Notes: generated by a model from the letters alone, not told the origin. DNA of 42,004 nt from an uncultured Methanosarcinales archaeon (GCA_964572885.1 CAZNFC010000002.1:1-42004), one strand, 5' to 3'; positions 1 to 26,576 are shown, counted from the stretch's first letter. Program-made: numbers and translations.

Positions 1-2
1 AT

Positions 3-3000
3 TCAAATCCCTCACTTTGTAGTGCTGAAAGCGGCTCTTTCAGTGGCACGGTGCCAGACACAAACAATAGGTGTTGCGGAGTTACTGCAACATTAGGTTT
101 CATCTCTTCAGATGGAAAATATCTTTGCAATAATAAAAATGGGTGGCAATGGCAGAATCAGGCAACCATCGGAGCATTCAAGATAAATCCAGTTGACAGC
201 ACTTATGATGCAATCTCAAATGGAGATAAATGGTACAGATGCGATCCACTTAATCTTTTCAATTTTCCTTCATTCAAATTCAATGCAACAAATCTCAATC
301 CAACTCCGTCAGGAGATTATGTTTTTGGTCAGCCTGCCTCTCCAACTTTTAGCGGAGGCGTAGTATCATCAGACACAACAGGATTACAAGTTGTCACCCA
401 AGACACAGTATTTCAGGGAATAACTCAAGATCAGGTCATATTATCAAATACGATACAGTTTTCAACGCCACAGGGAATCGTCACAGCTACAATCTCTTCA
501 AAAGAAATAAAAGGAAATGATAAAATAAGTTTGACCATCCAGGGGCTTCCTGCAGTTTCTTTACTGAGAAATAACACAGGATTCAAGATTAAAGTATCAA
601 ATAACAACGCTCAAATAGAAGTAACAAGTCATTCAAATGCAACTCCAAACTCAGGTATTTTAGGTCCGGTCGAAATCACACTTCCTCCCATATCTTCGGG
701 AGTCCATGATTTAAATGTAACAATAGTGAGCTCCGTCACAAATTCAGTATTAAATAATTATTTCTGGCCAAATGCATTTACAAAATTAGACGACCCGATA
801 TCAAACAGTTTCAATCCGATTCTAATCAATCCATCAAGATTCTTTTGTTACAGAAGAGGCGGCACATCAACGAATGGAGCAATCGCAGAGTGCTGCGGTC
901 CTGATTATCGTTATTGCAATAATGCACAGCAGGACAATGTAAGAATTTCAGGAGGACCGACAGGATTATTGAAAGATTATTATGGAGATTATAATAAAAA
1001 TAATGTGCTTAGGGTCAATTTCCCGAAACTTGGCGGATATCCTGGACAGAGCAATCCTACAGTAGGTATCCCTTCGAATTACATATACAATGCAGATAAT
1101 CTGCTTGTTACTGATTGGAGCTATCAATATAGTTATTACAATTCCTTGGAATTTGACGTCTTATTATTAGGAACAAAAAGACTTAGCATCTCTCTGATAA
1201 AAACAGACAATACAGAGATTCCAATCCAAGGATCAGTGCTGTCATATTCAACTACAGGAGATGATTTAGGTAAGTGGCATCATATAAGAATACCATTGAC
1301 TGCTGCCATGAAATCAAATATTAAAACAATCAAGTTATATGCGAATGGCATAGATCTGTATAATGATTACTATTCTCTTCCAGGAGAGAAACCAAAATTA
1401 GACGGCGCAAATCAATTTTTGATATTTTTTGTTGACAGGTTTTATTTAAGCTCAGGTTTAACAAAATATTGTGCTACAAATACAACAGATTACGGAAGTG
1501 CAAGCACAGTCGGGAACTGGATAGGTGATTTAGACTCAGAAAGAGATGCATGCAATAACGTTGCTTCATATAAATGGACAGGAGTTCAGAACACAGGCTC
1601 AGCAAGCAATTACGGACCTTGCTGTGGAGATGACCAGGGAGCTACAGGAAAATTCAATGAATCTTATGTAACTCCTATCGCAGGTTGCTGGCAGGGAAGT
1701 TATACGGCAAATAATACTCCGGCAAATAATAATACTTTATTATTTTCAGATGGAACTTTCTATTCCTGTCTTAATCAGAATTTAGCAAGCGATCTTCAGA
1801 AGCCAACTACTACACAGACAACTACTGATGTTCAAAACAATCCAAATATCTGCGCAAATAAAGGCTCATGGTACTGTGATTTCGATACTAAATGGAAAGA
1901 TGCACTGTCATATAACGCAACTCGGCCTGTAAATGCATTAAAAAACAACACAGGATTGGATTTCAGTTATTTCAACCCAAATACACAAAACAGCCAGTCA
2001 TATAGCAACATCTCTTGCTGTCCGCAGGGATATTGTTTTGACGGCTCAGCAAATGGATGTGTTGCACCTTACGATAATCCAAAAACTCTTCCAATCGGAA
2101 AAGTATTCGGAGATACAGGATACAGATGCAGCAATACAGGAAACTGGACTTTAGTTTCTCTAAGAAAAGATTTCAATCAGGAAGACAGCGGATACTGTAA
2201 CGACGACACAGAATGTTATGCGACAGCAGACAGAAGATGCTTCAAATCTGGAGAATGGGACATAATAGGAGGAAAAGACAGATTCTGTTTCAACGGAAAC
2301 TGGACAACAAGAACAAAATATGTTGCAGCTACTTTATTGAATTACGCATCCACAAATGGTGGTTCAGACTGGGCATTATACTGCGACAAACCTGAAAACT
2401 CATTAGGAATAGAAGAAGCCCAGGGAATAGGGACGATAGAATACAATAGAGTAAATTATTTTGTCAGCCAATTAATATCAAACCCTTCAAAATCAACTTT
2501 CAATGACTACGTAGGATTCGATTCAGGATATTCAAATGTAGCAAATAATGGACTATGCGGCAGGACAGGATCATCAAATATTCCATGTGTAAACAACTTC
2601 TGCATATTAAGATATACAAATATTTTGGGAGACCACATAATACTTGGAACATCTCTGAATAAAGCATTGAATGAATCTACATTCCCTCTTCAGGAAGGAT
2701 TAGGTTTCAACAGGACAAGAGATGTCGTAGGAGCTATCTCTAACGATGAATCAATAAATTTAATATATCAGTCTCCGCAGTCAGGAAACTTCTATTATTC
2801 TTCACAGAAGCAGGTGTTGTTCTATACAGTAGATAACGGAATAAGTCTGACTCCAGGAACACTCGGAGAAAATATTTTGAACGTAATATTGCATCCGGTA
2901 AAGTCGATAGTCAATTTTATTTCTTCAGTAACTGCCGGTCCACAGAGCGCCGAATTAAATAATCTTCTTTCTAAAGTCACAGACTTCGACAGGGTTTACT

Positions 3001-3251
3001 TTGCTGTCAAAGGAACTAAGACTGTAGTCGGATTCCAGGAGACTAAATTCACTAATGTAAGCGGAGTTGCAGGATTGCAGACATTCCTATCGATAAATTA
3101 TACCAACTTTAACAACAATATATGCAATGCAATAATTTATCCACTTGGATGCAATCAAACAGACAGTTCACAATACGTCTTTGGAACGAAGACAGGCTCC
3201 CAGGAGTTCACAGAATGGAAAGATTTGACCGCTAAATTAAGAATAAGTTAA
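3..3251 (+). CDS. Giant secreted Cys/Asn/Thr-rich surface protein, 5'-truncated by the window edge (>=1083 aa visible)
   Basis: Uninterrupted frame-3 ORF. The track start at 51 is a GTG, and the same frame stays open back to nt 3 (SNPSLCSAESGSFSGT...), so the gene very likely starts upstream. No TM segment is visible. CCG motifs recur (RCCGVTA, AECCGPDYRYC, GPCCGDDQG, ISCCPQGYC) and N-x-S/T sequons are dense. One beta-sandwich/CBM-like stretch is present (WSYQYSYYNSLEFDVLL...WHHIRIPL...FFVDRFYLS). Confidence 0.8.
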   Translation, partial: SNPSLCSAESGSFSGTVPDTNNRCCGVTATLGFISSDGKYLCNNKNGWQWQNQATIGAFKINPVDSTYDAISNGDKWYRCDPLNLFNFPSFKFNATNLNPTPSGDYVFGQPASPTFSGGVVSSDTTGLQVVTQDTVFQGITQDQVILSNTIQFSTPQGIVTATISSKEIKGNDKISLTIQGLPAVSLLRNNTGFKIKVSNNNAQIEVTSHSNATPNSGILGPVEITLPPISSGVHDLNVTIVSSVTNSVLNNYFWPNAFTKLDDPISNSFNPILINPSRFFCYRRGGTSTNGAIAECCGPDYRYCNNAQQDNVRISGGPTGLLKDYYGDYNKNNVLRVNFPKLGGYPGQSNPTVGIPSNYIYNADNLLVTDWSYQYSYYNSLEFDVLLLGTKRLSISLIKTDNTEIPIQGSVLSYSTTGDDLGKWHHIRIPLTAAMKSNIKTIKLYANGIDLYNDYYSLPGEKPKLDGANQFLIFFVDRFYLSSGLTKYCATNTTDYGSASTVGNWIGDLDSERDACNNVASYKWTGVQNTGSASNYGPCCGDDQGATGKFNESYVTPIAGCWQGSYTANNTPANNNTLLFSDGTFYSCLNQNLASDLQKPTTTQTTTDVQNNPNICANKGSWYCDFDTKWKDALSYNATRPVNALKNNTGLDFSYFNPNTQNSQSYSNISCCPQGYCFDGSANGCVAPYDNPKTLPIGKVFGDTGYRCSNTGNWTLVSLRKDFNQEDSGYCNDDTECYATADRRCFKSGEWDIIGGKDRFCFNGNWTTRTKYVAATLLNYASTNGGSDWALYCDKPENSLGIEEAQGIGTIEYNRVNYFVSQLISNPSKSTFNDYVGFDSGYSNVANNGLCGRTGSSNIPCVNNFCILRYTNILGDHIILGTSLNKALNESTFPLQEGLGFNRTRDVVGAISNDESINLIYQSPQSGNFYYSSQKQVLFYTVDNGISLTPGTLGENILNVILHPVKSIVNFISSVTAGPQSAELNNLLSKVTDFDRVYFAVKGTKTVVGFQETKFTNVSGVAGLQTFLSINYTNFNNNICNAIIYPLGCNQTDSSQYVFGTKTGSQEFTEWKDLTAKLRIS

Positions 3252-3257
3252 AAATGT

Positions 3258-6200
3258 ATGAAAAAAGCGCAATTAACGATGTTTATAATTCTCGGAATTG
3301 TAATTATAAGTATTTTCGGGTTTGTTTTCTTTGCAACAGGGCAAGTTAGAAATATACAGTCTTCAGCCCAGACACAAAAAATAGTCTCTGATATCCTTCA
3401 GTCAACTCCATTGAAATTTTATGTAGGAAGGTGCGCAGATCTGGCTCTAGAATCAGGAATAGACCTGTTATCTAAGCAGGGAGGAAAAATATTTCCAGGA
3501 CAGCCAGGGAATCTATTAAAAAATCCAGAAAAAGCATATGTATATAGGGAAGATTCAAAGAATAAGACTTATGATGTAGCGTATGCAGTACTGAAAGACA
3601 ATACTCCTCTTCCTCAGTATCCATGCAAGATAGGATTTGATAATTATGACAAGCCAGAAGCATACTGCGAATACAGATCAACGATTGAGATCCAGCCAGG
3701 CATATTTGTAAACAATTCAAAATTCAGCAATCTGGATTTCGGAATAGTAAATCTTCCAAGATTATGCAAGAATTCATTCTCCGGATGCACATTCAGAGAG
3801 GGATGGGACACAAGATTCTCTGTGCAGTCCCAGCTGGAGTCATATGTTGCCGATTATATCAAAAAATGTGTAGATTTTGAATCGATTGTCAGCGTGGCAC
3901 AATCATACAATGTTACTGAGGGGGATCCTTCTGCAAATATTACATTCTCAGACACAGAAATTTCTGCAACAATAAATTTCCCGATAATAATTTCACCCAT
4001 AGGAAGCCAGCCGATAATAAATTTATTTAATTTCCAGAGTACAGTCCCGACAAGATTCAAATTGATATACGGTCTTGCCAGAGAAGCAGTCGTAAAGGAT
4101 GTGTCTTCTCCTACTGCTCCGACATATAATCTATTTGAAGGATTGAAACAGGCAATCATTAATAGATTCAAAGGCTCTGACAGCGGACTTTTAGTGGAAA
4201 AGAATGAAAACATAACATCTTACGACAATATAATAAAAATCATAGACACGACAGAGAAAGATAGGAATTCTGTCTTTCAATTTCTCGAGGAAAACAGACC
4301 TCCTGTATTAGAGTATGTGAATCCAAGAGGTAAAATATCTACAAAATGCGGAGAATATGATCTGATTCTGCTTCAGGGACAGAATTTTGATTTTAAACCT
4401 GAAGCTTTCGATACAGAAGAAAATAATATACAATTTAATTATTCAGGCTGGCTGGCTGATTACAATGAAACAATATCCCCTCCATACACTTATGATGAAA
4501 AAGGTTGTGTCATTAATTACGTTAGCAATAAACATAACTTTCTTAATTCTCAGGATAAAAGAGTGAAGCCAAATGGATTGATATCTACTCCGATAGAAAA
4601 AAGTGATACTGGTCCGCATACATTGACCGTATACGCATGCGATTCGCAGTATTGCGACTCTGAAAATGTCAGAGTTTTAGTAGATGATCTATTAGAGGTA
4701 AATGTCAATGGTTCAAACAGGTTCGGAACACAGACATTCTCGATAGAAGATCCTTATTCTTTTTCAGCTGATATAAAAGACATATGGAATCCCGGAAATT
4801 ACCTGTTCTCATGGATAATAAAAGACAGGACAACAAACAATGTAATTTACCAAAATGATTCCGGAGGACAGACAATCAGCCTTCCGTTAGAAAACTATGA
4901 TATTTTCAATATCAAGCAGAAATACATGTCATATAACGGTCAGCCTTTCATACTTACTTCAGGAAAATACACAGCGATAGGAAGCGTAAGCCAGGGACTT
5001 AATCAGCCAATCCAGTCTAATTTTGATTTTGATGTAAAGAACTGCCTTCCTACTCCTGGAAATACAAATCCTCCTTTCCCATATTATGATGGAGATCCAT
5101 TCGATGGAAATCATGCATGCTGTGAGAGTACAGGAGACTTAAGTTCTACTACAAAACAATGTTACACTCCAACTCCGACTTATGGAAGTTTCATGTCATT
5201 TAATACGGATAAATACAAAACACAATATGACGCAGGGCAAACTGTTGCAAAATCAGGAGTAGATTTAGATCAAATAAAAACAAGTTTCGCAACAGGGCAG
5301 GTAACTTCAACAACAAATGACATATTCAAAAGAGTATTCACAAGAAACTGCGATAGAAAAAGAGGAAACATGTGCAACGGAACAATGACAGAAACTTATG
5401 TTGATATTTCTGTTCCAGACAAGCAATCAGGAGAATCAGCAACATGTTTCGGACCTCCAAGAAAATATCTAAAGGCAAACACAATAACCGAGGAAGCACT
5501 TTCATCAACTCCGTCATATGAAAAATATGGAGAGAATCCAACTACAGCAAATCCTATTACGACATTTGAGAAGGAAGTCGGAATAACGAACAGCAGCTCT
5601 TGTAATGATAATAAAAAATGCGTTTCAGACAACAATGCGGCATATGGTTATACCCTAATCGGTCAAAATCCTCATTATGTATGTTCAGCTGCATGCAGCG
5701 TGGATGGATGTACAAGAACAGTTCCAGATCCAAGCATTTGCATAAATTGTTATGATCAACAAGCATGTACATTATCGGACGGAACTCCTGCTCCTACAAT
5801 ACCTACTCCTGGATCAAGAAATTCATTTTCAATAAAACAATTTAATACATGCGTGCAGACAAACAGCTGTCAATACACGACAAGCACGACAGCAGACAGC
5901 TGCAACGGAGACTTCTTGACTGATTACTATTGCAAGCAGGATCTGTCACAGACTGGAACCGTGCTAAATCAGCAGCAGATCAATTGCACAGATTACAACA
6001 GGCAGTCTGCATTAGATGATGGAGACACACCACTTTCAGCAGGAACATGCACTTATTATGATAAAAGCCTATGTTCTAATGGACAGTGCCAGCCGCAAAC
6101 CACTCCTATAAATAAACAGGAAGGAAGGCAGACAAACTCAACAACAAGTGAATATTATTATCAAGAATACATCATAGTAAATAATCAATGCAAGGAGAAA

Positions 6201-6350
6201 GATTACAATTATGACACAAATCCGACACTTTGCACAAGCACAGTATTTGATTGCGCAAGCGGTCCGAAACAAGGAACATATGACGGTTCAAAGCTAAATG
6301 TACAAGATAGATGCATAGGTGATGATTTGTCAGAAAGGCAAACTTGTTGA
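3258..6350 (+). CDS. Giant (1030 aa) surface protein with a class III (prepilin-like) N-terminus, Ig-like modules and a Cys-rich C-terminal half
   Basis: ATG lies 6 nt after the upstream stop. The N-terminus MKKA|QLTMFIILGIVIISIFGFVFFATGQ has a short basic n-region, then [GA]Q, then about 20 hydrophobic residues. Ig/PKD-like segments are present (ENRPPVLEYVNP..., GPHTLTVYACDSQYCDSENVRVLVDD). The last ~450 aa are very Cys/Thr-rich (HACCESTGD, CINCYDQQAC...). Confidence 0.85.
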   Translation: MKKAQLTMFIILGIVIISIFGFVFFATGQVRNIQSSAQTQKIVSDILQSTPLKFYVGRCADLALESGIDLLSKQGGKIFPGQPGNLLKNPEKAYVYREDSKNKTYDVAYAVLKDNTPLPQYPCKIGFDNYDKPEAYCEYRSTIEIQPGIFVNNSKFSNLDFGIVNLPRLCKNSFSGCTFREGWDTRFSVQSQLESYVADYIKKCVDFESIVSVAQSYNVTEGDPSANITFSDTEISATINFPIIISPIGSQPIINLFNFQSTVPTRFKLIYGLAREAVVKDVSSPTAPTYNLFEGLKQAIINRFKGSDSGLLVEKNENITSYDNIIKIIDTTEKDRNSVFQFLEENRPPVLEYVNPRGKISTKCGEYDLILLQGQNFDFKPEAFDTEENNIQFNYSGWLADYNETISPPYTYDEKGCVINYVSNKHNFLNSQDKRVKPNGLISTPIEKSDTGPHTLTVYACDSQYCDSENVRVLVDDLLEVNVNGSNRFGTQTFSIEDPYSFSADIKDIWNPGNYLFSWIIKDRTTNNVIYQNDSGGQTISLPLENYDIFNIKQKYMSYNGQPFILTSGKYTAIGSVSQGLNQPIQSNFDFDVKNCLPTPGNTNPPFPYYDGDPFDGNHACCESTGDLSSTTKQCYTPTPTYGSFMSFNTDKYKTQYDAGQTVAKSGVDLDQIKTSFATGQVTSTTNDIFKRVFTRNCDRKRGNMCNGTMTETYVDISVPDKQSGESATCFGPPRKYLKANTITEEALSSTPSYEKYGENPTTANPITTFEKEVGITNSSSCNDNKKCVSDNNAAYGYTLIGQNPHYVCSAACSVDGCTRTVPDPSICINCYDQQACTLSDGTPAPTIPTPGSRNSFSIKQFNTCVQTNSCQYTTSTTADSCNGDFLTDYYCKQDLSQTGTVLNQQQINCTDYNRQSALDDGDTPLSAGTCTYYDKSLCSNGQCQPQTTPINKQEGRQTNSTTSEYYYQEYIIVNNQCKEKDYNYDTNPTLCTSTVFDCASGPKQGTYDGSKLNVQDRCIGDDLSERQTC

Positions 6351-19418: not shown

Positions 19419-20279
19419 GTGGTTGAATTCAAAGCAGTTGCGATGTATATTTTGGGAGCAGTAGTTGCTTTGCTTCTGTTTACATTTTTGAGAGATTTCG
19501 GATTGACGACACAGGGTTTAACAGAGGATCAGATATGCAGGCAAAGCGCAGAAGCAAACGCAGATTTTAGGTTTGAAAAACTTCCAAATAATATAGAGGT
19601 AAAATGTCCGACTTTATTCATCAAAGTCGATTCAGCAGAGCAGAATGTTGTCTTTGAGAATCTTGCGAGATCTTTAGCATCGACTTGGGATGAGATGTTG
19701 TTAGGAGAAAAAAACATATTCGATGTCCAGGACCAGAATTTTTGTGTTATAAGGAGAGTCTTGGAGTTCAAGACAGCAAATAAATACAAAGGATTCTTTG
19801 ATTATTTAGTCCAGAATAATCCTCCTTCATTGCAGCAATCTTATTTTAGATACCTTACAAATGTTGATATGAATCAAAATAAAGAAACTATCAGCTCAAA
19901 TACCAATTTGAAGAATTCTGACATTATAGATACTTCAACTCCTTATGTGGCAGTGTTTGTAATGTCAAAAAAAGCAAATATAGGCAAATTTACAGCAACT
20001 GGAATAGGAGCTGCGACAGGAGTTGCAGGAGGAACAGTTCTTGGAACCTCGATAGGATTCTTTTTGAGCGGAGCAGGAACTCCGATAGGTATTGTTCTAT
20101 TAGGAGGAAGTGCTGTCACAGCTGCAGGAACTGCGTTAGGAGGCACAGCTGGTTATATATTGGGTTCAGAATCTTCAGCAGACTGGGATTCAGCAATGAT
20201 GTTAATTCCTTATACGACCGAAAGCTTGAATAGCCTGAAATGCACTAAACTGCCGGCTTCACCACCGAAACTAAAATAA
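19419..20279 (+). CDS. Paralog of the 18477-19418 product: N-terminal hydrophobic helix + globular domain + glycine-zipper segment, 286 aa
   Basis: GTG start immediately after the upstream TAA. N-terminus MVEFKA|VAMYILGAVVALLLFTFL. C-terminal segment GIGAATGVAGGTVLGTSIGFFLSGAGTPIGIVLLGGSAVTAAGTALGGTAGYILG. Motifs align with the neighbour (QQSYFRYL vs QQTYFEAL, NFCVIRRV vs VNCLVCSDV). Confidence 0.75.
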   Translation: MVEFKAVAMYILGAVVALLLFTFLRDFGLTTQGLTEDQICRQSAEANADFRFEKLPNNIEVKCPTLFIKVDSAEQNVVFENLARSLASTWDEMLLGEKNIFDVQDQNFCVIRRVLEFKTANKYKGFFDYLVQNNPPSLQQSYFRYLTNVDMNQNKETISSNTNLKNSDIIDTSTPYVAVFVMSKKANIGKFTATGIGAATGVAGGTVLGTSIGFFLSGAGTPIGIVLLGGSAVTAAGTALGGTAGYILGSESSADWDSAMMLIPYTTESLNSLKCTKLPASPPKLK

Positions 20280-20318
20280 ACAAGAACTAAACAAATACTA
20301 TATGAAGGTATGGGATAC

Positions 20319-20477
20319 ATGAAAAAAATAAAGAAAGCTCAAGTTGAGGAATCACTCGTGAAAGTCATATTCTATTTAGCGTTGCTCGTGGTTCTAATCT
20401 TTATTGTCTGGTATCTGCTTTCAGGAAGGGCTCCGGAATTATTCAAAAGCATAACGGATAAACTGAGGTTTGGATAA
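20319..20477 (+). CDS. Mini pilin-like ORF (52 aa), not in the supplied ORF track
   Basis: My own translation gives MKKIKKA|QVEESLVKVIFYLALLVVLIFIVWYLLSGRAPELFKSITDKLRFG. Its TAA (20475-20477) shares one base with the next ATG (20477), a TAATG coupling. Confidence 0.55.
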   Translation: MKKIKKAQVEESLVKVIFYLALLVVLIFIVWYLLSGRAPELFKSITDKLRFG

Positions 20478-21403
20478 TGGTAGAAGAAGCAGTTAAAAAG
20501 ACAACAGCACTTGCTATTGCTTTGTTTTTATTGGTAGTCTTGATTTTTGTTGGAATAAACCCATTATATTCAGCTTTCAAATCTTTTTTGTCTATAGGTC
20601 AGCTTGAAAATCCTGAAGTGGCGCAACTTAAGCAGCAGTGTGATGATTACGTAAATATTCATGGAGCAACAGATGGCTGCGCACTTAATGTTGCTGCAAA
20701 AATAGTGGAAACTAATGGAGACTTGTTTGTGGCGCAGAGTTTCCTTAAAAAAGAGATAGAATCTACTAATGACCAGAAAATATTAAATAAATGTTTCGAG
20801 TTTGCAAGGGATGACTTGTATCCAAAATCAAAAGATTGGGAAGGCGCATTAGGTATCTACAACGAATTATTTGATAAATTAAAAACAAGAGATGTCATGA
20901 TTGCAAAAGATGAAGCGCAGCTTAATGTATACATAAATCAAGTTTCTCAGATATATTCGAAGCTTAAGTATCCGGTATCGAGCAGAGATGATTATGGAGC
21001 TAATGCCAATTTCCTTGCAGTAAATCAGGAATTAGTCCCAACAATCAAGAAAGCATTGAAATTGTATAACGGCAATAAAGAGAAATTGAATGTCGAGCAG
21101 TTTTATTTCAATGATTACAAAGGAGATGATGTTTGTAACGCATTATATGCAGCAACCGGTGCACAAGATAATGCTTGTAATATCTATGCAAGAGCTTCTT
21201 TAGATTATGGATGCTTCAGACAGGCAGGATTATGCAAATCTTGTACATCATATCATAAAGCAGGTGTGGATGCATGTAGCGGCTATGACAGCGAGGATGC
21301 ATGTAAAACAGATCCTTGTAATGCAGGAGACTGCTCTTGGACAGGGTTTATAGGTTCATGTAAGTCTGTTAGGGGCACGGTTAACTACTGGGATTTGAGC
21401 TAA
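20477..21403 (+). CDS. N-terminally anchored protein with a helical middle and a Cys-rich C-terminal module, 308 aa
   Basis: N-terminus MVEEAVKKTTALAIALFLLVVLIFVGINPLY is a TM helix without a clear [GA] cleavage motif. The C-terminus is ...CKSCTSYHKAGVDACSGYDSEDACKTDPCNAGDCSWTGFIGSCKSV. Confidence 0.8.
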   Translation: MVEEAVKKTTALAIALFLLVVLIFVGINPLYSAFKSFLSIGQLENPEVAQLKQQCDDYVNIHGATDGCALNVAAKIVETNGDLFVAQSFLKKEIESTNDQKILNKCFEFARDDLYPKSKDWEGALGIYNELFDKLKTRDVMIAKDEAQLNVYINQVSQIYSKLKYPVSSRDDYGANANFLAVNQELVPTIKKALKLYNGNKEKLNVEQFYFNDYKGDDVCNALYAATGAQDNACNIYARASLDYGCFRQAGLCKSCTSYHKAGVDACSGYDSEDACKTDPCNAGDCSWTGFIGSCKSVRGTVNYWDLS

Positions 21404-21414: not shown

Positions 21415-21426
21415 TTTATATATAAA
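21415..21426 (+). promoter_or_regulatory. Putative archaeal TATA box (TTTATATATAAA) upstream of the three small pilin genes
   Basis: It lies in a 58-nt gap, one of the few real gaps in the cluster, about 36-47 nt upstream of the ATG at 21462. A purine-rich SD-like AGAGGTGA follows at 21449-21456. Confidence 0.5.
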
Positions 21427-21461: not shown

Positions 21462-21737
21462 ATGGATAAGAAAGGTGTTGAGATTTCTATGAATGTTCTC
21501 ATAGTAGCAGCTATTGGTTTACTTGTTCTTGTTGTTCTTTCTATAATATTTCTTGGAAGGATAGGAACATTCGGACAGCAGTCAGCGAGTTGCGAAGTGC
21601 AAGGCGGAAAATGTGCAGTAGCATGTAATAATGCAGATTACGGTACACAAAATTTCCAATCAAGAAATCCGTTGTTAACTTGCCCTGACAGTGCAACTGG
21701 AGACAAGCAAATATGCTGTCTGCCGGTAAAAGCCTGA
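21462..21737 (+). CDS. Small type IV pilin-like protein with a six-Cys C-terminal domain, 91 aa (paralog 1 of 3)
   Basis: The track start 21453 is GTG. The ATG at 21462 sits 5 nt after AGAGGTGA and gives MDKKG|VEISMNVLIVAAIGLLVLVVLSIIFLG. The C-terminal domain is C-x6-C-x3-C-x18-C-x10-CC with a GG before the second Cys. Confidence 0.85.
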   Translation: MDKKGVEISMNVLIVAAIGLLVLVVLSIIFLGRIGTFGQQSASCEVQGGKCAVACNNADYGTQNFQSRNPLLTCPDSATGDKQICCLPVKA

Positions 21738-21744
21738 TAACACA

Positions 21745-22008
21745 ATGAAATCCAAGAAGGGCGTAGAGATTGCAATGAACGTTGTAATCATCTCCGTAAT
21801 TGCCTTATTGGTTTTAGTTGTTGTGGTATTTATCTTTGCTGGGAAGACCCAGTCTTTTTCAAAAGGAGTCTCTGATTGTATAAGTTTGGGCGGCACTTGT
21901 GAAGACAGAAATTGTCTCACATTATTGCCTCCAAGACCGTCAATTCCAAATGGAGATTGTACCAAAGCGCAGGATGAAGTCAGGTATTGTTGTTCTAAAA
22001 TACAATGA
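21745..22008 (+). CDS. Small type IV pilin-like protein with a six-Cys C-terminal domain, 87 aa (paralog 2 of 3)
   Basis: N-terminus MKSKKG|VEIAMNVVIISVIALLVLVVVVFIFAG. The C-terminal domain is C-x6-C-x4-C-x14-C-x9-CC with a GG before the second Cys. Confidence 0.85.
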   Translation: MKSKKGVEIAMNVVIISVIALLVLVVVVFIFAGKTQSFSKGVSDCISLGGTCEDRNCLTLLPPRPSIPNGDCTKAQDEVRYCCSKIQ

Positions 22009-22262
22009 GAAATAAGAAAGGATTTGAGATGACAATAAGTGTAGTTGTAGTCTTAGTGATATCTTTGATTTTATTGTCAGTCGGAATATACATAATATAC
22101 ACAAAAATATTGAAGCCTTCTGAGACGGCAAATTCATTCCTGAATTGCGAAGACAGGGGAGGAGAGCCAGGCTGCACAGGAAAAACAGGTGGGTTATGTG
22201 TCAAGCTTCCAACAAGGACGTCCAAAGACCCTGTAGATTGTTATATCAAAGAGCTAAAATGA
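22005..22262 (+). CDS. Small type IV pilin-like protein with a four-Cys C-terminal domain, 85 aa (paralog 3 of 3)
   Basis: ATGA overlap with the upstream gene. N-terminus MRNKKG|FEMTISVVVVLVISLILLSVGIYIIY. C-terminal domain CEDRGGEPGC...C...C. Confidence 0.8.
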   Translation: MRNKKGFEMTISVVVVLVISLILLSVGIYIIYTKILKPSETANSFLNCEDRGGEPGCTGKTGGLCVKLPTRTSKDPVDCYIKELK

Positions 22263-22897
22263 GCAAAGGTTCATTAAACATATCTCTGGAGACCGTCATA
22301 GGGTTGGTCTTGGCAGCAATAATCATTCCAGGATTATTTTTCTTTTCAGTCAATCTTCTTGATTTAGTGACCAATAAACCGGAACAATCGACATTGAACG
22401 GATTTGACGGGTTGATGATAAAGATTAACCAGTTGGTCGATGGAACATTAAATAATGCAGGAAACACGGATAAAACTTTCATAGATGTTCCTTATTTTAT
22501 ACAAAATGATTACGGACTTATAGGATTTGACAGTAATTTTGTGCATCAGACATGCGGATTAAGAAATATAGATCTCAAAAAACCAATTTCATGTCTTCCT
22601 AGACAGGATGCTTGTTTTTGTCTCGACAAATCAGGATGGGGATTAGATGACGTTCAAAATTGGCAGAAGTGTCAGACTATAAAAGATGTAAGATATGTAT
22701 ATGTCACAAAAGAATCGGTATCAAACAGCGGAACAAAGCATGATTCTATTTCAGAAGGCAATAATCTTGCCTTATGGAGCGGCTGCGATCAAGGAACTTT
22801 CGGAGTCAAGAACATCAGGATATCAAAAATAAAGGCAAGAGAGGACAGTAAAATATATGATTTAGTGTTCCAGATACCATCTCCAATTACGAGCTAA
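22259..22897 (+). CDS. Pilin-like protein (class III-like N-terminus), 212 aa
   Basis: The track ORF starts at 22145 inside the upstream gene. The ATG at 22259 forms an ATGA overlap with the upstream stop and gives MSKG|SLNISLETVIGLVLAAIIIPGLFFFSV. Confidence 0.7.
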   Translation: MSKGSLNISLETVIGLVLAAIIIPGLFFFSVNLLDLVTNKPEQSTLNGFDGLMIKINQLVDGTLNNAGNTDKTFIDVPYFIQNDYGLIGFDSNFVHQTCGLRNIDLKKPISCLPRQDACFCLDKSGWGLDDVQNWQKCQTIKDVRYVYVTKESVSNSGTKHDSISEGNNLALWSGCDQGTFGVKNIRISKIKAREDSKIYDLVFQIPSPITS

Positions 22898-22931: not shown

Positions 22932-23465
22932 ATGCAAAAGAGAGGAGCGACAACCATGCAGTACTTCGTGGTTTTTGAAGCTCTGCTCGCTGTTTTTATC
23001 ATAATTGCACTTCTGAGTTATGTGCATAGTGTCGCAGCAGGTTCATTATTTGAGCAGAATTTCTTGGCCAGAGATGTCGGGTTGACGATAGACAGCTTAT
23101 ACGCATCCCCTGGAGAAATAAATATGATTTATGATTCAGATATAAAGGAAAATGCAGTATTTGATATTCCTATCTTAACATTTGCACCAGAGACTAAGCT
23201 CAGATTTGCATTTGAGAAATCAAGAGTTCATGTTTTCAGAGACTCATCAGGAGAATTATACCAGAATCCTGCTACATATGCTTTCGGAGAAGATTATAGG
23301 ATCAAATTTAATACTCCTCAGGAAGGAGACGCAAATAAACTAAATAGGAACGCTCAGGGATATGAAATCCCTAATACAAAAAGCAATTTGCTTATCAAGA
23401 ATTCTAACGGAATATTATCGGTCGAGTTTACAGAATTAAACAAAAACGGTGTGAATAATGGATAA
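22932..23465 (+). CDS. Pilin-like protein (class III-like N-terminus), 177 aa
   Basis: N-terminus MQKRG|ATTMQYFVVFEALLAVFIIIALLSYV. A TTTTAAAG element at 22902-22909 lies about 27 nt upstream of the ATG, which could mean an internal promoter with a leaderless start. Confidence 0.75.
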   Translation: MQKRGATTMQYFVVFEALLAVFIIIALLSYVHSVAAGSLFEQNFLARDVGLTIDSLYASPGEINMIYDSDIKENAVFDIPILTFAPETKLRFAFEKSRVHVFRDSSGELYQNPATYAFGEDYRIKFNTPQEGDANKLNRNAQGYEIPNTKSNLLIKNSNGILSVEFTELNKNGVNNG

Positions 23466-23970
23466 GAAGGCGCAGGAATCGTTTTCAATATTATTGATCA
23501 TTCCAAGAATGATATTCCTGATAATAGTGATGTTCTCAATATATTTTCTTATAAGAGCATATGTCGTGTCCAAGCTGGACGTTCAGGATGTCCAAGTGGA
23601 TGTTTTCATCAATAAAGTTTTATACTCCCCTAACGGCATCTCATATTATGACCGCGATTTAAAGAGAAGCATCCCTGGTCTGATTAATCCGAGTTCGATT
23701 ACTGACGATAATTTAAACAAGCTGGCGGATTACGATGACAGCTCATTTATCTCTGCAAAAATACAGTTAATCGACAATGACAGCAAAGAAATTACTTCTG
23801 CATTATATAACGGAGAGACTTATTCGAGATGGTTGCCTGTAGCGACAACAGGAGTTCCAGGTCCAGGCGGATATAAACAAACGATTAAATCAGTTTATGT
23901 TAATTTCTTAGACCAAAACAAAATAAGGGAGGGTACATTGAAGTTTGATGTACTGATACCCGGAAGTTAA
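23458..23970 (+). CDS. Pilin-like protein (class III signal peptide), 170 aa
   Basis: 8-nt overlap with the upstream gene. N-terminus MDKKA|QESFSILLIIPRMIFLIIVMFSIYFLI. Confidence 0.8.
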   Translation: MDKKAQESFSILLIIPRMIFLIIVMFSIYFLIRAYVVSKLDVQDVQVDVFINKVLYSPNGISYYDRDLKRSIPGLINPSSITDDNLNKLADYDDSSFISAKIQLIDNDSKEITSALYNGETYSRWLPVATTGVPGPGGYKQTIKSVYVNFLDQNKIREGTLKFDVLIPGS

Positions 23971-23971
23971 A

Positions 23972-24472
23972 ATGAATAAAAAAGCGTCTATACCTGCAGC
24001 AATTGTGGACATAATAGGATACGGGGTGTTTGCATTAATTTTGGTTATATTCTTTTTCTTTTTTAATATAAGCGCAAAAACAACGACTCAGGAGATAAAA
24101 CAGGTTCAATTCAATGAAGTTACAGGAGAGCAATTTTTACTGAATTACATCAGGCATCCTGTATATATTCCAAATCAGGAACCGATAACGATGGCTGATT
24201 TTATTGCTTTGAAGTATGAAAAAGGAGAGACTGTGCAGCTGCGAAATGAGTTAGATAAAGATCTGAAGGAAATACTGGGCAAATCAGGATACGCACAGTT
24301 TTATTTCGTCATGTCAGACGGGAAAATAACTGAGAGAATAAATGAAATTCCTTCTTCTTCATTGTCTTCTTTAGGATTAGGCGGTCTGCCTGTAACAATT
24401 CCAAAGAGCGACGGCACACAAATAGGCATGTGGTTATTTTTATATACACAAGGGAGTCAAGCAAATGGATAA
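23972..24472 (+). CDS. Pilin-like protein (class III-like N-terminus), 166 aa
   Basis: Starts 1 nt after the upstream stop. N-terminus MNKKA|SIPAAIVDIIGYGVFALILVIFFFFF. Confidence 0.75.
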   Translation: MNKKASIPAAIVDIIGYGVFALILVIFFFFFNISAKTTTQEIKQVQFNEVTGEQFLLNYIRHPVYIPNQEPITMADFIALKYEKGETVQLRNELDKDLKEILGKSGYAQFYFVMSDGKITERINEIPSSSLSSLGLGGLPVTIPKSDGTQIGMWLFLYTQGSQANG

Positions 24473-26576
24473 AAAAGGATACGTATTTGTACCATTCATA
24501 GTTATCGGGACATTCTTTGTGCTTACATTCGCATTGTTAGTATTATCCAAGAAATATGAAGTCCGAGATTCTGAAGGAAATCAGAGATTTGTAGGAGAAA
24601 AACAGTCCCAGATATTCCTTGCATATCAAAAAGGAGAGAATGCGTTATTCTATATCTCTCAATCTGCAAGATACTCTGCGCAAAGCACGATAACAAAACT
24701 TGCAGCAAACGAATCAGGATGCGATACCATATTCGGATATGGTGTGTGGGTCACCAAAACAGCGAATTGTATTCCGAACAAAATTTCAGCAGAAAATAAA
24801 TTTAAAGAAGAATTTAAGGACAGGTTAGCTTCTTTCACATCTAAATATAGTGATGCAGCAATACCTACTTTCGATAATTATGATATTTCTTCACAGAATG
24901 ATAAATTAAAAATAATAGGAGATTCATCGTCAGATTTAATTATAAGTACATCAAAGCTTTATTCCAATGTCCTTGTCACTCATTATTACGCACCATCTGA
25001 AAAAGATTTCTCAACATGGTACACAGCTGAAGATTACACAAAGTATCCTGGAAATGAGATAGAAAGCTGGTGTGCTATACCGATGGAAAAGAGAGGATTT
25101 TTCGAGGAAGTCAAATGTGAAGGAGCAGGTGTAGGAATTTCAGGGACGATATATAATTATAAGACAATCAAGCCGACAAAAGAATCAAGTACCACTACAG
25201 ATAAAATAAGTACTGCTACAGGAACGGTGGCGACACCTCACAGAACAATAGCCGTTGCTCCTGATATGATACCTTATGGTTCAAAAGTAGATGTGGAATT
25301 CGAAGGATGCACTCAGAATAGTTGTTGCAGCCAATGGAATGGAGAATATATTGCAGAAGATACAGGAGTGGCGATGCAAAATGACTGGAAACTTGGAAAG
25401 CCTCATATAGACTTATTTGTAGGAACAGGTCTTGATCAGCTCAAGCAATCTGAATGTCTTCCTGGCGGAGAGGTAAACAAGGCAGCACTAATTGTGAAGC
25501 AGAAGGGAGGGCTTTCAACAGGAGACATCATATATAGATTAAAACCTGCATTCAAATCAGAAATAAATTATTCATTTGATGAATATGATAAATTAGGAGC
25601 AGATATTTTGAGTATATCTGAGGAGACCACACACAGATCTGAATGCAATAAAAAAGAATCAAAAGATGAATGTATTAAGGAAATACTTAATAGATATAAT
25701 GATTTCAAATGGAGTCTGAAATGTGACATATCTGATCTTGATGCTGATAAATATCCTCAATATCTATTTTTATGTGCAGAATCAAGATACGGAATTCCTA
25801 CAGATTCGGGAATTAAACATTACATCTACAAGATTGCTTATTTCGCAGGTGATGATGTGGCTCCTGCACAAGTGACAGGGATAACGACATCAGATACACA
25901 ATTAGCAGAGAAGAAAGTCACAATCTCTTTCAATGCAAATACAGAACCGGATGTAGCTTATTATGATATTTATCATTCAGAAAATCCCTTCACAGATGTA
26001 AGTAACTCTGAGAAGTATGACTTGATGATAAATCAAGACCCTTCAAAGACATCATATGATCAAATATTAGATGTTCCTCAAGATGGAAAACAATATTATT
26101 TTGCTGTCACGGCCGTTGATACTACTGGAAATGAAAATACCCAGGTAGTTTCTGTACAGGGAACATCCACAGATGACTTAAAGCCGGGACCAATTAATGG
26201 AGTAACTGTCAATAGATTAAGCCAGACAAATCCTTTCTTAGATGTTTATGTAAATCACCCAACAACAAATGAAGATGGTTCAAAGGTAACAGACGTGACA
26301 AAATACACGATTTATTTCTCTGACTCAGATGTTTGCGACCAATATCATATAAGCAGCATATTGAATGATTACATAGATAAGCAGGACTATTCATTCGAGA
26401 AGACAACCAATCAGGGTTCAGATGTCGATAAGATAGTCCAGCCGCAGCCTCAATTACCAAAATTTGCCAATTCCAAGACATATTGCATGGTTGTAATAGC
26501 AGGAGATGACGGTCCTGACAAAGAACCGACGTCAAATCAGTACGGAGCAAATAGTTTCAAGGAAATAAAGACGTAA
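24465..26576 (+). CDS. Pilin-like N-terminus fused to an MltA/3D-type (lytic transglycosylase-like) domain and two FN3-like modules, 703 aa
   Basis: 8-nt overlap with the upstream gene. N-terminus MDKKG|YVFVPFIVIGTFFVLTFALLVL. The central region is THYYAPSE...CEGAGVGISGTIYNY...TATGTVATPHRTIAVAPDMIPYGSKVDVEF...YIAEDTGVAMQ...HIDLFVGTG. The C-terminal FN3-like modules are APAQVTGITTSD...YYFAVTAVDTTGNEN and KPGPINGVTVNR...YCMVVIAGDD. Confidence 0.85.
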   Translation: MDKKGYVFVPFIVIGTFFVLTFALLVLSKKYEVRDSEGNQRFVGEKQSQIFLAYQKGENALFYISQSARYSAQSTITKLAANESGCDTIFGYGVWVTKTANCIPNKISAENKFKEEFKDRLASFTSKYSDAAIPTFDNYDISSQNDKLKIIGDSSSDLIISTSKLYSNVLVTHYYAPSEKDFSTWYTAEDYTKYPGNEIESWCAIPMEKRGFFEEVKCEGAGVGISGTIYNYKTIKPTKESSTTTDKISTATGTVATPHRTIAVAPDMIPYGSKVDVEFEGCTQNSCCSQWNGEYIAEDTGVAMQNDWKLGKPHIDLFVGTGLDQLKQSECLPGGEVNKAALIVKQKGGLSTGDIIYRLKPAFKSEINYSFDEYDKLGADILSISEETTHRSECNKKESKDECIKEILNRYNDFKWSLKCDISDLDADKYPQYLFLCAESRYGIPTDSGIKHYIYKIAYFAGDDVAPAQVTGITTSDTQLAEKKVTISFNANTEPDVAYYDIYHSENPFTDVSNSEKYDLMINQDPSKTSYDQILDVPQDGKQYYFAVTAVDTTGNENTQVVSVQGTSTDDLKPGPINGVTVNRLSQTNPFLDVYVNHPTTNEDGSKVTDVTKYTIYFSDSDVCDQYHISSILNDYIDKQDYSFEKTTNQGSDVDKIVQPQPQLPKFANSKTYCMVVIAGDDGPDKEPTSNQYGANSFKEIKT
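24975..25435 (+). other. MltA-like + 3D-domain (double-psi beta-barrel) segment within the 24465-26576 CDS
   Basis: The motif order matches my recollection of the family pattern: T-x-Y-Y-x-P, [ST]A[ST]G, R-T-I-A-V-x-P-x-x-I-P-x-G-S, A-E-D-T-G-x-A, I-D-L-F. Two of the three signature Asp are in place. The first is shifted (IAVAPD rather than IAVDP). Confidence 0.6.

What the first reader, a model, noticed from the sequence alone, without database searches (positions are those of the whole stretch)
1..26576. 26.5-kb one-strand cluster of four giant surface proteins plus about 17 pilin-like proteins: candidate undescribed archaeal surface, attachment or invasion apparatus
Seen in sequence: 21 consecutive + strand ORFs, most joined by ATGA/TAATG overlaps or gaps of 0-9 nt. 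Only three gaps exceed 35 nt, and the two largest (86 and 58 nt) each carry a TATA-like element. 18 of the 21 products begin with a short basic n-region, a [KR][GA] motif and a hydrophobic stretch of about 20 residues. That is the architecture of archaeal class III (type IV prepilin) signal peptides. Established knowledge: known archaeal type IV pilus-like systems (archaellum, Aap/Ups pili, Methanococcus Epd pili, bindosome) use only a handful of pilins. They do not combine them with 1000-2000-aa Ig/FN3/CarboxypepD_reg adhesins and a muralytic-type domain. Inference: this is a composite fibre, adhesin and wall-breaching machine. In a small-genome, possibly episymbiotic archaeon it would be a good candidate for host contact. 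No PilB/ArlI-type ATPase, PilC/ArlJ-type platform protein or PibD/EppA-type peptidase lies in the window, so the motor must be upstream or elsewhere.
Basis: partly seen in the sequence, partly recalled or inferred. Interest (0 to 1): 0.9.

Follow-up and report, generated by a model that had tools for sequence, protein, structure and literature searches.

The report
Archaeal pilus-like cluster with wall-cutting enzyme
A small-genome archaeon (Woesearchaeota, DPANN) carries a conserved run of 21 surface-protein genes, most with pilus-subunit-like starts and the last carrying a bacterial-cell-wall-cutting domain; it looks like an undescribed apparatus for gripping and opening bacterial cells, but no motor genes lie nearby and nothing has been shown experimentally.

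Summary
Window 3-26576 carries 21 tightly packed + strand ORFs. Eighteen start with [KR][GA] followed by one hydrophobic helix, against 1 of 20 other ORFs in the window.

The cluster is collinear across Woesearchaeota: a 774-kb genome, about 10 MAGs and 37 long metagenome contigs. It always ends directly upstream of the RPA gene. The small proteins belong to large families with no Pfam or PDB match (1961 hits for three of them).

Evidence for pilins:
- The families share a homologous N-terminal module with +1 Gln and a nearby Glu, as in Methanococcus Epd pilins.
- The N-termini are more conserved than the rest of each protein.
- A confident AlphaFold model of g07 shows a 56-residue N-terminal helix plus a four-stranded sheet.

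The last gene (g21) combines this kind of N-terminus with a 3D domain and FN3 repeats. Its positional orthologues add Peptidase_M23 or Amidase_2, so the target is probably bacterial murein.

Against:
- No assembly ATPase, platform or prepilin peptidase lies in the window or in about 100 related loci.
- No curated pilin profile matches.
- Foldseek finds no pilin.
- One giant (g03) more likely has an ordinary Sec signal.

Verdict: a real, conserved, undescribed pilin-like cluster; the function is inferred.

The parts
3..3251 (+). g01: giant Cys-rich surface protein, 5'-truncated by the contig end (>=1082 aa). It corresponds to two adjacent genes (1035 + 984 aa, or 1232 + 621 aa) in relatives; both of those have Sec signals.
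3258..6350 (+). g02: 1030-aa protein with a conserved class III-like start (MKKAQLTMFIILG...). Candidate giant pilin-like adhesin; no Pfam domain.
6393..6400 (+). TATA-like element TTTATAAA in the 86-nt gap before g03; putative internal promoter.
6437..12607 (+). g03: 2056-aa giant with CarboxypepD_reg domains. The N-terminal KRGQ is not conserved in orthologues, so a Sec-type signal (cleavage ..LFA|Q) is more likely.
12617..15754 (+). g04: 1045-aa protein with a Sec signal, a large ectodomain containing TSP3_bac (Ca-binding) and Cys-rich repeats, three C-terminal TM helices (797-868) and a Lys/Glu-rich cytoplasmic tail. Candidate membrane anchor.
15751..16299 (+). g05: 182-aa pilin-like protein (..KKG|QMES..). 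First of a quartet (g05-g08) whose order is invariant in all related loci.
16296..17387 (+). g06: 363-aa pilin-like protein (..NKG|QVEVQFNW..). N-terminal 35 aa are 83% identical to the orthologue, against 48% for the rest.
17389..17892 (+). g07: 167-aa pilin-like protein (..RKA|QIQMGEN..). AlphaFold2 model pLDDT 93.6: helix 3-58, then a four-stranded antiparallel sheet. Large family with no Pfam or PDB match.
17876..18376 (+). g08: 166-aa pilin-like protein (..TKA|QMEIMG..). Its N-terminal module is homologous to that of g07 (hhalign 95%).
18367..18480 (+). g09: 37-aa mini-ORF (MLLRKG|QSGED.. plus one helix). An equivalent ORF exists in OZ246410.1.
18477..19418 (+). g10: 313 aa, class III-like start plus a C-terminal glycine-zipper hydrophobic region.
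19419..20279 (+). g11: 286 aa, same architecture as g10 (N-terminal helix plus C-terminal Gly-rich hydrophobic region).
20310..20477 (+). g12: 55-aa mini pilin-like ORF (..KKA|QVEES..), conserved in OZ246410.1 (57% identity).
20477..21403 (+). g13: 308-aa Cys-rich protein with a plain signal anchor (no [KR][GA] motif).
21415..21422 (+). TATA-like element TTTATATA in the 58-nt gap before g14, followed by the strongest Shine-Dalgarno match in the cluster (GAGGTGA).
21462..21737 (+). g14: 91-aa pilin-like protein (MDKKG|VEISMN..) with a Cys-rich C-terminal knob. Candidate major subunit: the N-terminal ~35 residues are nearly constant across loci while the C-terminus varies.
21745..22008 (+). g15: 87-aa paralogue of g14.
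22005..22262 (+). g16: 85-aa paralogue of g14 and g15.
22259..22897 (+). g17: 212-aa pilin-like protein (MSKG|SLNISLE..).
22932..23465 (+). g18: 177-aa pilin-like protein (MQKRG|ATT..).
23458..23970 (+). g19: 170-aa pilin-like protein (MDKKA|QES..). Large family, weakly related to the g07 family over its full length (hhalign 70%, E 4e-5).
23972..24472 (+). g20: 166-aa pilin-like protein (MNKKA|SIP..).
24465..26576 (+). g21: 703-aa modular protein. It has a class III-like start (MDKKG|YVF..), a helix/sheet N-terminal module, a 3D domain (res ~165-325; D299 and D316 invariant) and tandem FN3 repeats. Positional orthologues add Peptidase_M23 or Amidase_2.
26674..27669 (+). RPA-type ssDNA-binding protein gene. 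Not part of the apparatus as such, but it lies directly downstream of the cluster wherever that flank could be read.

Best explanation
The cluster encodes the structural parts of a type IV filament-like surface organelle that is specific to, and conserved across, Woesearchaeota.

Proposed mechanism (inferred):
1. Sixteen to seventeen products are made with short basic leaders ending in a small residue (K-[G/A/S]|Q...E).
2. A prepilin-type peptidase encoded elsewhere cleaves the leaders.
3. The mature proteins assemble through their conserved hydrophobic N-terminal helices.

Proposed roles (inferred):
- The tandem 85-91-aa proteins g14-g16 have their own TATA box and the best ribosome-binding site. 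They are the likeliest bulk subunits.
- The invariant quartet g05-g08 would act like a minor-pilin priming or tip complex.
- g02 (1030 aa) and g21 are 'modular pilins' that carry functional modules on the fibre.
- The Sec-secreted giants g01, g03 and g04 supply adhesive and anchoring surfaces. g04 spans the membrane.
- g21 presents a murein-cleaving 3D domain on FN3 spacers. Because an archaeon has no murein of its own, the target is most likely the cell wall of a bacterium to which the cell attaches.

What is shown: gene anatomy, conservation, motif conservation, domain content and one confident fold model.
What is inferred: leader cleavage, filament assembly, the roles of individual genes, and the bacterial target.
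For: Motif enrichment and conservation:
- Enrichment inside the cluster.
- The motif is kept in orthologues that are 35-60% identical.
- g07 family: -1 is Ala, Ser or Gly; +1 is Gln in 51 of 55; an acidic residue lies within +7 in 51 of 55.
- This matches the Epd pilin signature of +1 Gln and a nearby Glu (PMC3875500).

N-terminal module:
- The N-terminal 35 aa are more conserved than the rest, pooled 53.5% against 41.8%. For g06 the figures are 83/48, for g07 80/50 and for g14 71/38.
- hhalign links the N-terminal modules of g07 and g08 (95%), and of g14 and g07 (88.5%). It links g07 and g19 weakly over the full length.

Fold: the AlphaFold2 model of g07 (pLDDT 93.6, pTM 0.79) has a continuous helix 3-58, a loop region and four antiparallel strands.

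Candidate major subunit: g14 has a TATA-like box and the best SD match. Its family has a near-constant N-terminus and a variable Cys-rich C-terminus, and often occurs as tandem copies.

Wall-cutting end protein:
- g21 has a 3D domain above the Pfam cut-off.
- Residues including D299 and D316 are invariant across 14 homologues.
- FN3 repeats are shown by Foldseek.
- Orthologues carry Peptidase_M23 + 3D (L006, 7e-23) or 3D + Amidase_2 (P0010).

Conservation: the order is collinear in OZ246410.1, in several of the 17 genome loci (almost all Woesearchaeota MAGs) and in 37 long metagenome loci.

A motor may exist elsewhere: CpaF/TadC loci are reported in Woesearchaeota genomes (PMC11291902).
Against: - No PilB/ArlI/CpaF-type ATPase, TadC-type platform or A24 peptidase lies in the window, in 21 genome loci (about 400 kb) or in 80 metagenome loci (733 kb).
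- One paper states that type IV pilus components are missing in DPANN genomes (10.1101/2020.05.14.094862).
- No curated pilin or class III profile (Pfam, NCBIfam) matches any product, even when N-terminal fragments are scanned alone. The best results are two sub-threshold Flp1_like matches and one TIGR04205 match at E = 0.06.
- Foldseek of the confident g07 model finds no significant PDB match and no pilin.
- Ser at -1 in 21 of 55 g07-family members lies outside the usual [KR][GA] rule.
- The acidic residue sits at +2 to +6, not at a fixed +5.
- g10 and g11 have a second hydrophobic region at the C-terminus, which fits poorly with a filament subunit.
- The first Asp of the canonical 3D triad is not conserved in the g21 family, and no muralytic activity has been tested.
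Confidence: 0.5

Rival explanations
1. Cell-envelope cluster rather than a fibre. The giants are S-layer or surface-coat proteins. The small proteins are N-terminally membrane-anchored (cleaved or not) components of a static envelope or anchoring complex, with the hydrolase acting in scavenging. No type IV assembly machine is involved.
For: - The cluster sits in a core-genome position next to RPA, RadA and S2 in every relative examined.
- g04 has the Sec signal plus C-terminal TM layout typical of archaeal surface-layer proteins.
- No ATPase, platform or peptidase is linked in about 100 loci.
- No pilin profile or Foldseek match was found.
- g10 and g11 have hydrophobic regions at both ends.
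Against: - A plain anchor would not need a conserved K-[GAS]-Q...E motif.
- It would not be expected to keep its N-terminus more conserved than its ectodomain.
- It would not predict one homologous N-terminal module shared by several families.
- The 56-residue helix plus four-strand sheet of g07 is the pilin layout.
- The 37-91-aa products are hard to rationalise as envelope proteins but are typical sizes for Epd/Flp-type pilins (PMC3875500).
Confidence: 0.22
2. Competence-like DNA-capture pilus. The pilin-like proteins form a short fibre or pseudopilus that binds and imports extracellular DNA. This would be functionally coupled to the adjacent ssDNA-binding RPA and nearby RadA, feeding a nucleotide-auxotrophic cell. 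Lysis of neighbouring bacteria by g21 would supply the DNA.
For: - An RPA gene lies directly downstream of the last cluster gene in 7 of 7 genome loci and in at least 21 of 37 long metagenome loci, even where the other neighbours differ.
- RadA lies nearby in several loci.
- From general knowledge, not tested here: bacterial competence pili are type IV filaments with several minor pilins.
Against: - No ComEC-like channel, DNA-binding pilin motif or nuclease lies in the cluster.
- RPA has its own 97-nt upstream gap with an AT-rich element and is a housekeeping gene.
- The adjacency may simply be inherited gene order.
- Giant adhesins and FN3-mounted hydrolases are not features of competence pili.
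Confidence: 0.1
3. Not an organismal apparatus: a horizontally acquired island, provirus remnant or assembly artefact.
For: Foldseek hits of g21 to phage minor tail proteins. Hydrolase module combinations resemble phage tail lysins.
Against: - GC content is uniform, 0.36-0.39, across the window.
- The same position and gene order hold in dozens of divergent genomes.
- The phage hits are explained by FN3 repeats alone.
- No integrase or capsid genes are present.
Confidence: 0.02

Closest known systems
Methanococcus maripaludis Epd pili (archaeal type IV filament 'system 1'; DUF361/PF04021 pilins cleaved by EppA)
   Same: - Short basic leader ending in a small residue, +1 Gln and a nearby acidic residue.
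- Many pilin-like genes per genome, including very small ones (67-76 aa) as the major subunit (PMC3875500).
- System 1 is reported in some DPANN (10.64898/2026.04.22.720090).
   Different: - No PF04021 match.
- Glu is not fixed at +5, and -1 is often Ala or Ser.
- No ATPase, twin platform genes or EppA in the cluster, whereas the epd operon contains them.
- Here the pilin-like genes are joined to 1000-2000-aa giants and a murein hydrolase.
- All families are unannotated.
Bacterial type IV pilus / type II secretion minor-pilin operons with PilY1, and 'modular pilins' (e.g. Streptococcus sanguinis PilB, PilC)
   Same: - A conserved ordered set of about four minor pilin-like genes, one of them larger (g05-g08).
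- Large adhesins encoded alongside.
- Pilin modules fused to functional domains (g21, g02), as in PMC8179133 and PMC9934059.
- The g07 model has the roughly 53-residue helix plus four-strand sheet typical of bacterial pilins.
   Different: - Archaeal host.
- No sequence or Foldseek similarity to any solved pilin.
- No N-methylation-type G|F(M)TLxE motif.
- About 16 pilin-like genes rather than 5-6.
- The grafted module is a murein hydrolase.
[quoted passage not shown] 2021, fam00969 / Module 98; GH23 proteins of Vigneron et al. 2022)
   Same: - Same lineage.
- Same idea: extracellular murein-cleaving proteins in archaea that lack murein, pointing to bacterial partners (PMC8204110, PMC9723730).
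- Giant 3D-domain relatives of g21 (about 2150 aa) occur in L012 and L020.
   Different: - Those reports treat single proteins.
- The class III-like N-terminus, the fixed position as last gene of a pilin-like cluster, and the module swapping (3D, M23, Amidase_2) are not described there.
- The domain here is 3D (MltA/RlpA-type), not GH23.
Type IV pilus loci with coiled-coil proteins in cluster 2 DPANN (Hamm et al. 2024)
   Same: Same superphylum, Woesearchaeota included. The pilus genes are proposed to mediate host interaction. Those loci supply the CpaF ATPase and TadC platform that this cluster lacks (PMC11291902).
   Different: Different loci: the neighbours there are Mpg, GroEL and GatE; here they are RNase P p30 and RPA/RadA. 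No sigma-1-like coiled-coil proteins, CpaF or TadC occur here. The families here were not recognised by arCOG-based searches.
Phage tail-associated (virion-associated) peptidoglycan hydrolases
   Same: A wall-cutting module (glycan-cleaving domain, with or without an M23 endopeptidase or an amidase) is mounted on FN3/Ig spacers at the end of a fibre-like device, for local wall penetration.
   Different: The cluster is a cellular, chromosomal, core-genome locus. The protein is anchored by a pilin-like N-terminus, not by a tail. The Foldseek similarity is limited to FN3 repeats.

Membership tests
Type IV filament (TFF) superfamily system | Subunits with class III signal peptides: a short basic leader, a small residue at -1, then a ~20-residue hydrophobic helix | tested here: met
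   18 of 21 by the simple motif and 16 of 21 by the strict detector, against 1 of 20 elsewhere in the window. The motif is conserved in orthologues and across large families. This is a sequence pattern only; cleavage has not been shown.
Type IV filament (TFF) superfamily system | Pilin fold: long N-terminal alpha-helix packed on an antiparallel beta-sheet | tested here: inconclusive
   The g07 AlphaFold2 model (pLDDT 93.6) has helix 3-58 plus four strands. Foldseek against the PDB gives no significant match and no pilin (best E = 0.14).
Type IV filament (TFF) superfamily system | Assembly ATPase (PilB/ArlI/CpaF, PF00437) encoded with the pilins or in the genome | tested here: not met
   No T2SSE-like Walker A / GE[IVL]R protein lies in the window, in 21 genome loci or in 80 metagenome loci. 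Genome-wide presence could not be tested. The literature reports CpaF in Woesearchaeota (PMC11291902).
Type IV filament (TFF) superfamily system | Polytopic platform protein (PilC/TadC/ArlJ, PF00482) | tested here: not met
   Polytopic ORFs in all loci were listed. Those closest to the cluster were scanned against Pfam and none matched T2SSF. Genome-wide presence is not testable with these tools.
Type IV filament (TFF) superfamily system | Prepilin peptidase (A24: PibD/FlaK/EppA) | not testable with these tools
   None lies in the window or in related loci. One divergent locus (L018) has a presenilin/SPP-type GxGD protease inside the cluster.
Epd-type pilins (Pfam PF04021 Class_III_signal / DUF361) | Match to the PF04021 profile | tested here: not met
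   No match at E <= 0.1-10 for full-length products, family members or isolated N-termini.
Epd-type pilins (Pfam PF04021 Class_III_signal / DUF361) | +1 Gln and +5 Glu after a leader ending in Gly (PMC3875500) | tested here: inconclusive
   +1 Gln occurs in 9 of the 18 window products that have the motif, and in 51 of 55 g07-family members with the motif. An acidic residue lies at +2 to +6 in 11 of the 18, but rarely exactly at +5. The -1 residue is Ala or Ser more often than Gly in the g07 family.
Archaellum | Archaellin (PF01917), ArlF/G, ArlH/I/J | tested here: not met
   No such Pfam or NCBIfam matches in any product.
3D domain (PF06725; MltA/RlpA/YuiC-type murein glycan-cleaving fold) | Profile match above the curated cut-off | tested here: met
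   g21 residues 260-324: 30 bits against a cut-off of 23.8. Orthologues in L006, L009 and L015 score 24.1-44.5 bits.
3D domain (PF06725; MltA/RlpA/YuiC-type murein glycan-cleaving fold) | Three conserved aspartates / lytic activity on murein | tested here: inconclusive
   D299 and D316 are invariant in 14 homologues. The first Asp position is variable. The profile gives no PDB sequence match. Enzymatic activity is not testable here.

The most novel reading that the evidence does not exclude
Woesearchaeota, one of the most abundant uncultivated archaeal groups, share a lineage-wide surface organelle built from pilin-like proteins of entirely unannotated families and genetically unlinked to any known type IV motor. 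The organelle would carry interchangeable murein hydrolases (3D, M23, amidase) at its business end. That would make it an archaeal device for attaching to and cutting into bacterial cells. It would also be the first molecular evidence that these archaea are cross-domain epibionts or predators of bacteria, and it might be assembled by a non-canonical machine.
Probability: 0.3. Interest if true: 0.85.

Novelty: new variant of a known kind. Interest (0 to 1): 0.68.

Why it matters
No Woesearchaeota are in culture, and their partners and mode of contact are unknown. This cluster is conserved across the group, and none of the papers searched describes it.

- It supplies a concrete, testable parts list: candidate fibre subunits, adhesins and a wall-cutting end protein.
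- The murein-specific modules (3D, M23, Amidase_2) argue that the partners are bacteria rather than archaea. That is a specific prediction for co-occurrence studies, cryo-ET and enrichment work.
- It shows that ATPase-centred searches for archaeal type IV filament systems miss large stand-alone pilin clusters made of unannotated families. Three of the families here give 1961 hits among 50%-identity representatives.
- It may provide the 'missing' pilins for the DPANN ATPases noted by Makarova et al. 2016 (PMC4858521).

Tried and rejected
- Exact look-ups of window proteins returned nothing for g02 and RadA. Context came instead from homologues.
- My third homologous-protein search used a 1139-aa concatenation of six small proteins and returned no hit. 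This was probably a word-index artefact, and the search was wasted. The same trick did work with the search of protein representatives.
- The 65-sequence g07 alignment was too diverse for the metagenome scan. A 12-sequence version worked.
- Pfam and NCBIfam scans of all small products, of 65 + 25 family members and of isolated N-termini found no pilin family.
- PDB sequence-profile searches with the g21, g07 and g14 families found nothing meaningful.
- Foldseek of g07 found nothing significant.
- Foldseek of g21 against the PDB and the viral library was dominated by FN3 repeats. It therefore said nothing about the 3D domain or the N-terminal module.
- The reading that all 18 motif-bearing products are prepilins is rejected for g03, because orthologues lack the motif.
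- Archaellum, a mobile element and an assembly artefact were considered and rejected.
- Rfam scans of the two long non-coding stretches found nothing.

Full report
**Origin and setting**

The window is a whole 42,004-bp NCBI contig: the 703-aa product of 24465-26576 is found exactly, on a contig of that length. The non-cluster genes are archaeal housekeeping genes:
- RPA, YdjM, RadA, a TRAM protein, S2, RadB and a GT2 glycosyltransferase;
- tRNA-Cys and tRNA-Arg;
- TopoVI A and B, a KH protein, Rio kinase and DnaG.

GC content is uniform at 0.35-0.39.

The closest relative is the 773,982-bp chromosome OZ246410.1, whose cluster genes are about 35-60% identical. Most other relatives are titled Candidatus Woesearchaeota. 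The organism is therefore a small-genome DPANN archaeon.

**Observation**

Twenty-one + strand ORFs fill nt 3-26576.
- Junctions are ATGA-type overlaps or gaps of at most 9 nt. The exceptions are 86, 58, 34 and 30 nt.
- The two largest gaps each hold a TATA-like octamer, at 6393 and 21415. These are 2 of only 6 matches in 27 kb.
- g14, downstream of the second octamer, also has the best Shine-Dalgarno match, GAGGTGA.
- Eighteen products have [KR][GA] within 20 residues of the start, followed by one hydrophobic helix.
- A strict detector gives 16 of 21 in the cluster against 1 of 20 for the rest of the window (p = 3e-6).

Corrections to the finding:
- The first ORF runs off the contig. It equals two neighbouring genes in relatives.
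- g03's motif is absent from its orthologues, which carry Sec-type signals.
- g04 has a Sec signal, three C-terminal TM helices and a charged cytoplasmic tail.
- g13 has a plain signal anchor.

**Conservation**

In OZ246410.1 the same genes occur in the same order. Upstream to downstream the products are 190 aa, 1035, 984, 1049, 1898 and 1032 aa, then 164, 383, 163, 157, 323, 277, 52, 330, 91, 85, an uncalled ~86-aa g16 equivalent, 230, 155, 170, 172 and 694 aa. The locus is bounded upstream by a tRNA-modification gene and RNase P p30. It is bounded downstream by RPA, YdjM and RadA.

A scan of one genome per species with the g21 family found 17 loci, almost all Woesearchaeota MAGs. In L005, L006, L007, L009, L010, L015 and L018, a one-strand run of 8-16 ORFs with the same kind of N-terminus ends in a large 3D-domain protein. 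That protein lies directly upstream of RPA.

A metagenome scan with the g07 family returned 80 loci. In all 37 loci longer than 9 kb, every detected homologue but two lies on the + strand. Their order is giants, g05, g06, g07, g08, (g10, g11), g14/g15, (g18-g20), g21, RPA, with one exception (L053/L054, where g14 copies precede g10/g11). Identities are 20-56%.

A full HMMER search with g07 + g08 + g19 found 1961 cluster representatives at E <= 1e-3 and 761 at E <= 1e-10. Nearly all are 150-190 aa long. The feature is therefore real, old and lineage-wide.

**Are the small proteins pilins?**

Evidence for:
- The motif is conserved position for position in orthologues.
- In the g07 family, the 55 of 65 members with the motif have Ala (30), Ser (21) or Gly (4) at -1. 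Gln is at +1 in 51 of them, and an acidic residue lies within +7 in 51. Most of the 10 members without the motif are truncated gene calls; two have Asn or Gln in place of Lys/Arg.
- This resembles the Methanococcus Epd pilins: a 5-13-residue leader ending in Gly, +1 Gln and +5 Glu, with major pilins of about 74 aa (PMC3875500).
- N-terminal 35-residue segments are more conserved than the remainder. The pooled figures are 53.5% against 41.8%. For g06 they are 83/48, for g07 80/50 and for g14 71/38. That is the pilin pattern rather than that of a generic anchor.
- Profile comparison shows a shared N-terminal module between g07 and g08 (95%) and between g14 and g07 (88.5%). g07 and g19 are weakly related over the full length (70%).
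- AlphaFold2 with 65 homologues gives a confident g07 model (pLDDT 93.6, pTM 0.79). It has an unbroken helix 3-58, a loop region with two short helices, and a four-stranded antiparallel sheet. This is the classical type IV pilin layout.

Evidence against:
- No Pfam or NCBIfam pilin family matches anything.
- PDB sequence-profile searches find nothing.
- Foldseek of the g07 model finds no significant match and no pilin.

I therefore treat 'works like pilins' as likely. Membership of any curated pilin family is not established.

**Roles within the cluster (inference)**

- g14-g16 are tandem 85-91-aa paralogues behind their own TATA box. Their family keeps an almost constant N-terminus (KKG.x[LI]S.N.II.AAIAL.VLVVL..IF.GR) with a variable Cys-rich C-terminus, and often occurs in two or three copies. 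They are the best candidates for the bulk subunit.
- g05-g08 form a quartet with invariant order. This recalls the four core minor pilins of bacterial systems.
- g02 keeps its class III-like start in orthologues and would be a 1030-aa modular pilin.
- g01, g03 and g04 are Sec-dependent giants. g03 has CarboxypepD_reg domains and g04 has TSP3 repeats.

**The wall-cutting end**

g21 has a class III-like start. Its AlphaFold2 model has pLDDT 83.9.
- The N-terminal module has helices 3-30 and 45-82 followed by strands.
- The 3D domain scores above the Pfam cut-off. A block of residues including D299 and D316 is invariant across 14 homologues.
- Tandem FN3 repeats are confirmed by Foldseek.

Genes in the same position, or homologues, in other genomes carry different wall-directed modules:
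- Peptidase_M23 plus 3D in L006 (7e-23);
- 3D plus Amidase_2 in P0010;
- 3D alone in L009 and L015;
- a GDSL hydrolase in L021.

Three independent murein-directed activities recur in homologues of one protein, and in L006 at the same cluster position. This argues that the substrate is bacterial peptidoglycan, which the archaeon itself lacks. Large murein-lytic proteins in Woesearchaeota and Pacearchaeota have been noted before (PMC8204110, PMC9723730). Those reports do not describe the pilin-like N-terminus or the cluster.

**The missing motor**

No secretion-type ATPase, TadC-like platform or A24 peptidase is present in the window, in about 400 kb of genome loci or in 733 kb of metagenome loci. 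The literature disagrees on whether one exists elsewhere:
- One study states that type IV pilus components are missing in DPANN (10.1101/2020.05.14.094862).
- Another reports two conserved loci with a CpaF ATPase and a TadC platform in Woesearchaeota and allied lineages (PMC11291902).
- Makarova et al. noted nanoarchaeal ATPases whose pilins could not be found (PMC4858521).
- The recent ATPase-centred census of archaeal type IV filaments would not detect a stand-alone pilin cluster of unannotated families (10.64898/2026.04.22.720090).

I could not scan the rest of OZ246410.1, so this remains the decisive open test.

**Verdict**

The finding is a real, conserved and, as far as the searched literature shows, undescribed gene cluster.
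- Best reading (confidence about 0.5): the structural genes of a type IV filament-like organelle with adhesins and a murein hydrolase, used for contact with bacteria.
- Main rival (about 0.2): a static envelope complex whose members merely use pilin-like anchors.
- A link to DNA uptake, suggested by the invariant RPA neighbour, is possible but weak.

I class it as a new variant of a known kind, with an interest score of 0.68.

Noticed in passing
window 26674-27669 (and L005-L018, L027-L099): An RPA-type ssDNA-binding gene lies directly downstream of the last cluster gene in every genome locus where that flank is visible, and in at least 21 of 37 long metagenome loci. This holds even where the genes after RPA differ (SAHH in L007, an ABC transporter in L010).
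   Followed up: partly
L018:6758-7669 and L018:568-1935; L016:1898-3253: In one divergent MAG, a presenilin/SPP-type GxGD intramembrane aspartyl protease (PF06550, 1.8e-14) sits inside the cluster, between the CarboxypepD_reg giant and the pilin-like genes. A HerA/DUF87 + Zot-like ATPase lies about 6 kb upstream, and a similar ATPase is near the cluster in L016. These could be an alternative processing enzyme and motor, or coincidence.
   Followed up: partly
window 3-3251 versus L003:10001-16002 and L004:10001-15561: The first giant ORF of the window aligns with the C-terminal half of one gene and the C-terminal part of the next gene in relatives. It is therefore a fusion here, or a split there.
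   Followed up: partly
window 18477-20279: g10 and g11 are same-architecture neighbours. Each has a class III-like N-terminus plus a C-terminal glycine-zipper-like hydrophobic segment (e.g. AVGLGYVSGAVIGGKIGLVTGGPVFAFGGSVAGAAIGMIG). This is an odd layout for a filament subunit.
   Followed up: no
L005, L007, L008, L012, L017 (record titles): Several MAG records that carry this Woesearchaeota-type cluster, including the complete chromosome OZ246410.1, are titled 'uncultured Methanosarcinales archaeon'. That conflicts with their gene content and with the Woesearchaeota relatives, and is probably a placeholder or wrong label.
   Followed up: no
window 40380-41129 and 28122-28353: Two unusually long stretches lack a convincing ORF: about 750 nt before dnaG and 232 nt between ydjM and the 105-aa gene. 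Rfam finds nothing in either.
   Followed up: partly
window 28354-28671: A small conserved protein (105 aa; 91 aa in OZ246410.1) with no Pfam family sits between ydjM and radA in both genomes.
   Followed up: no
L003:3427-4476: OZ246410.1 has a DDE_Tnp_1 transposase and several orphan ORFs inserted upstream of the cluster. The JGI relative L004 lacks them.
   Followed up: no
window 34851-35005: tRNA-Cys(GCA) and tRNA-Arg(TCT) lie 6 nt apart on the - strand.
   Followed up: no
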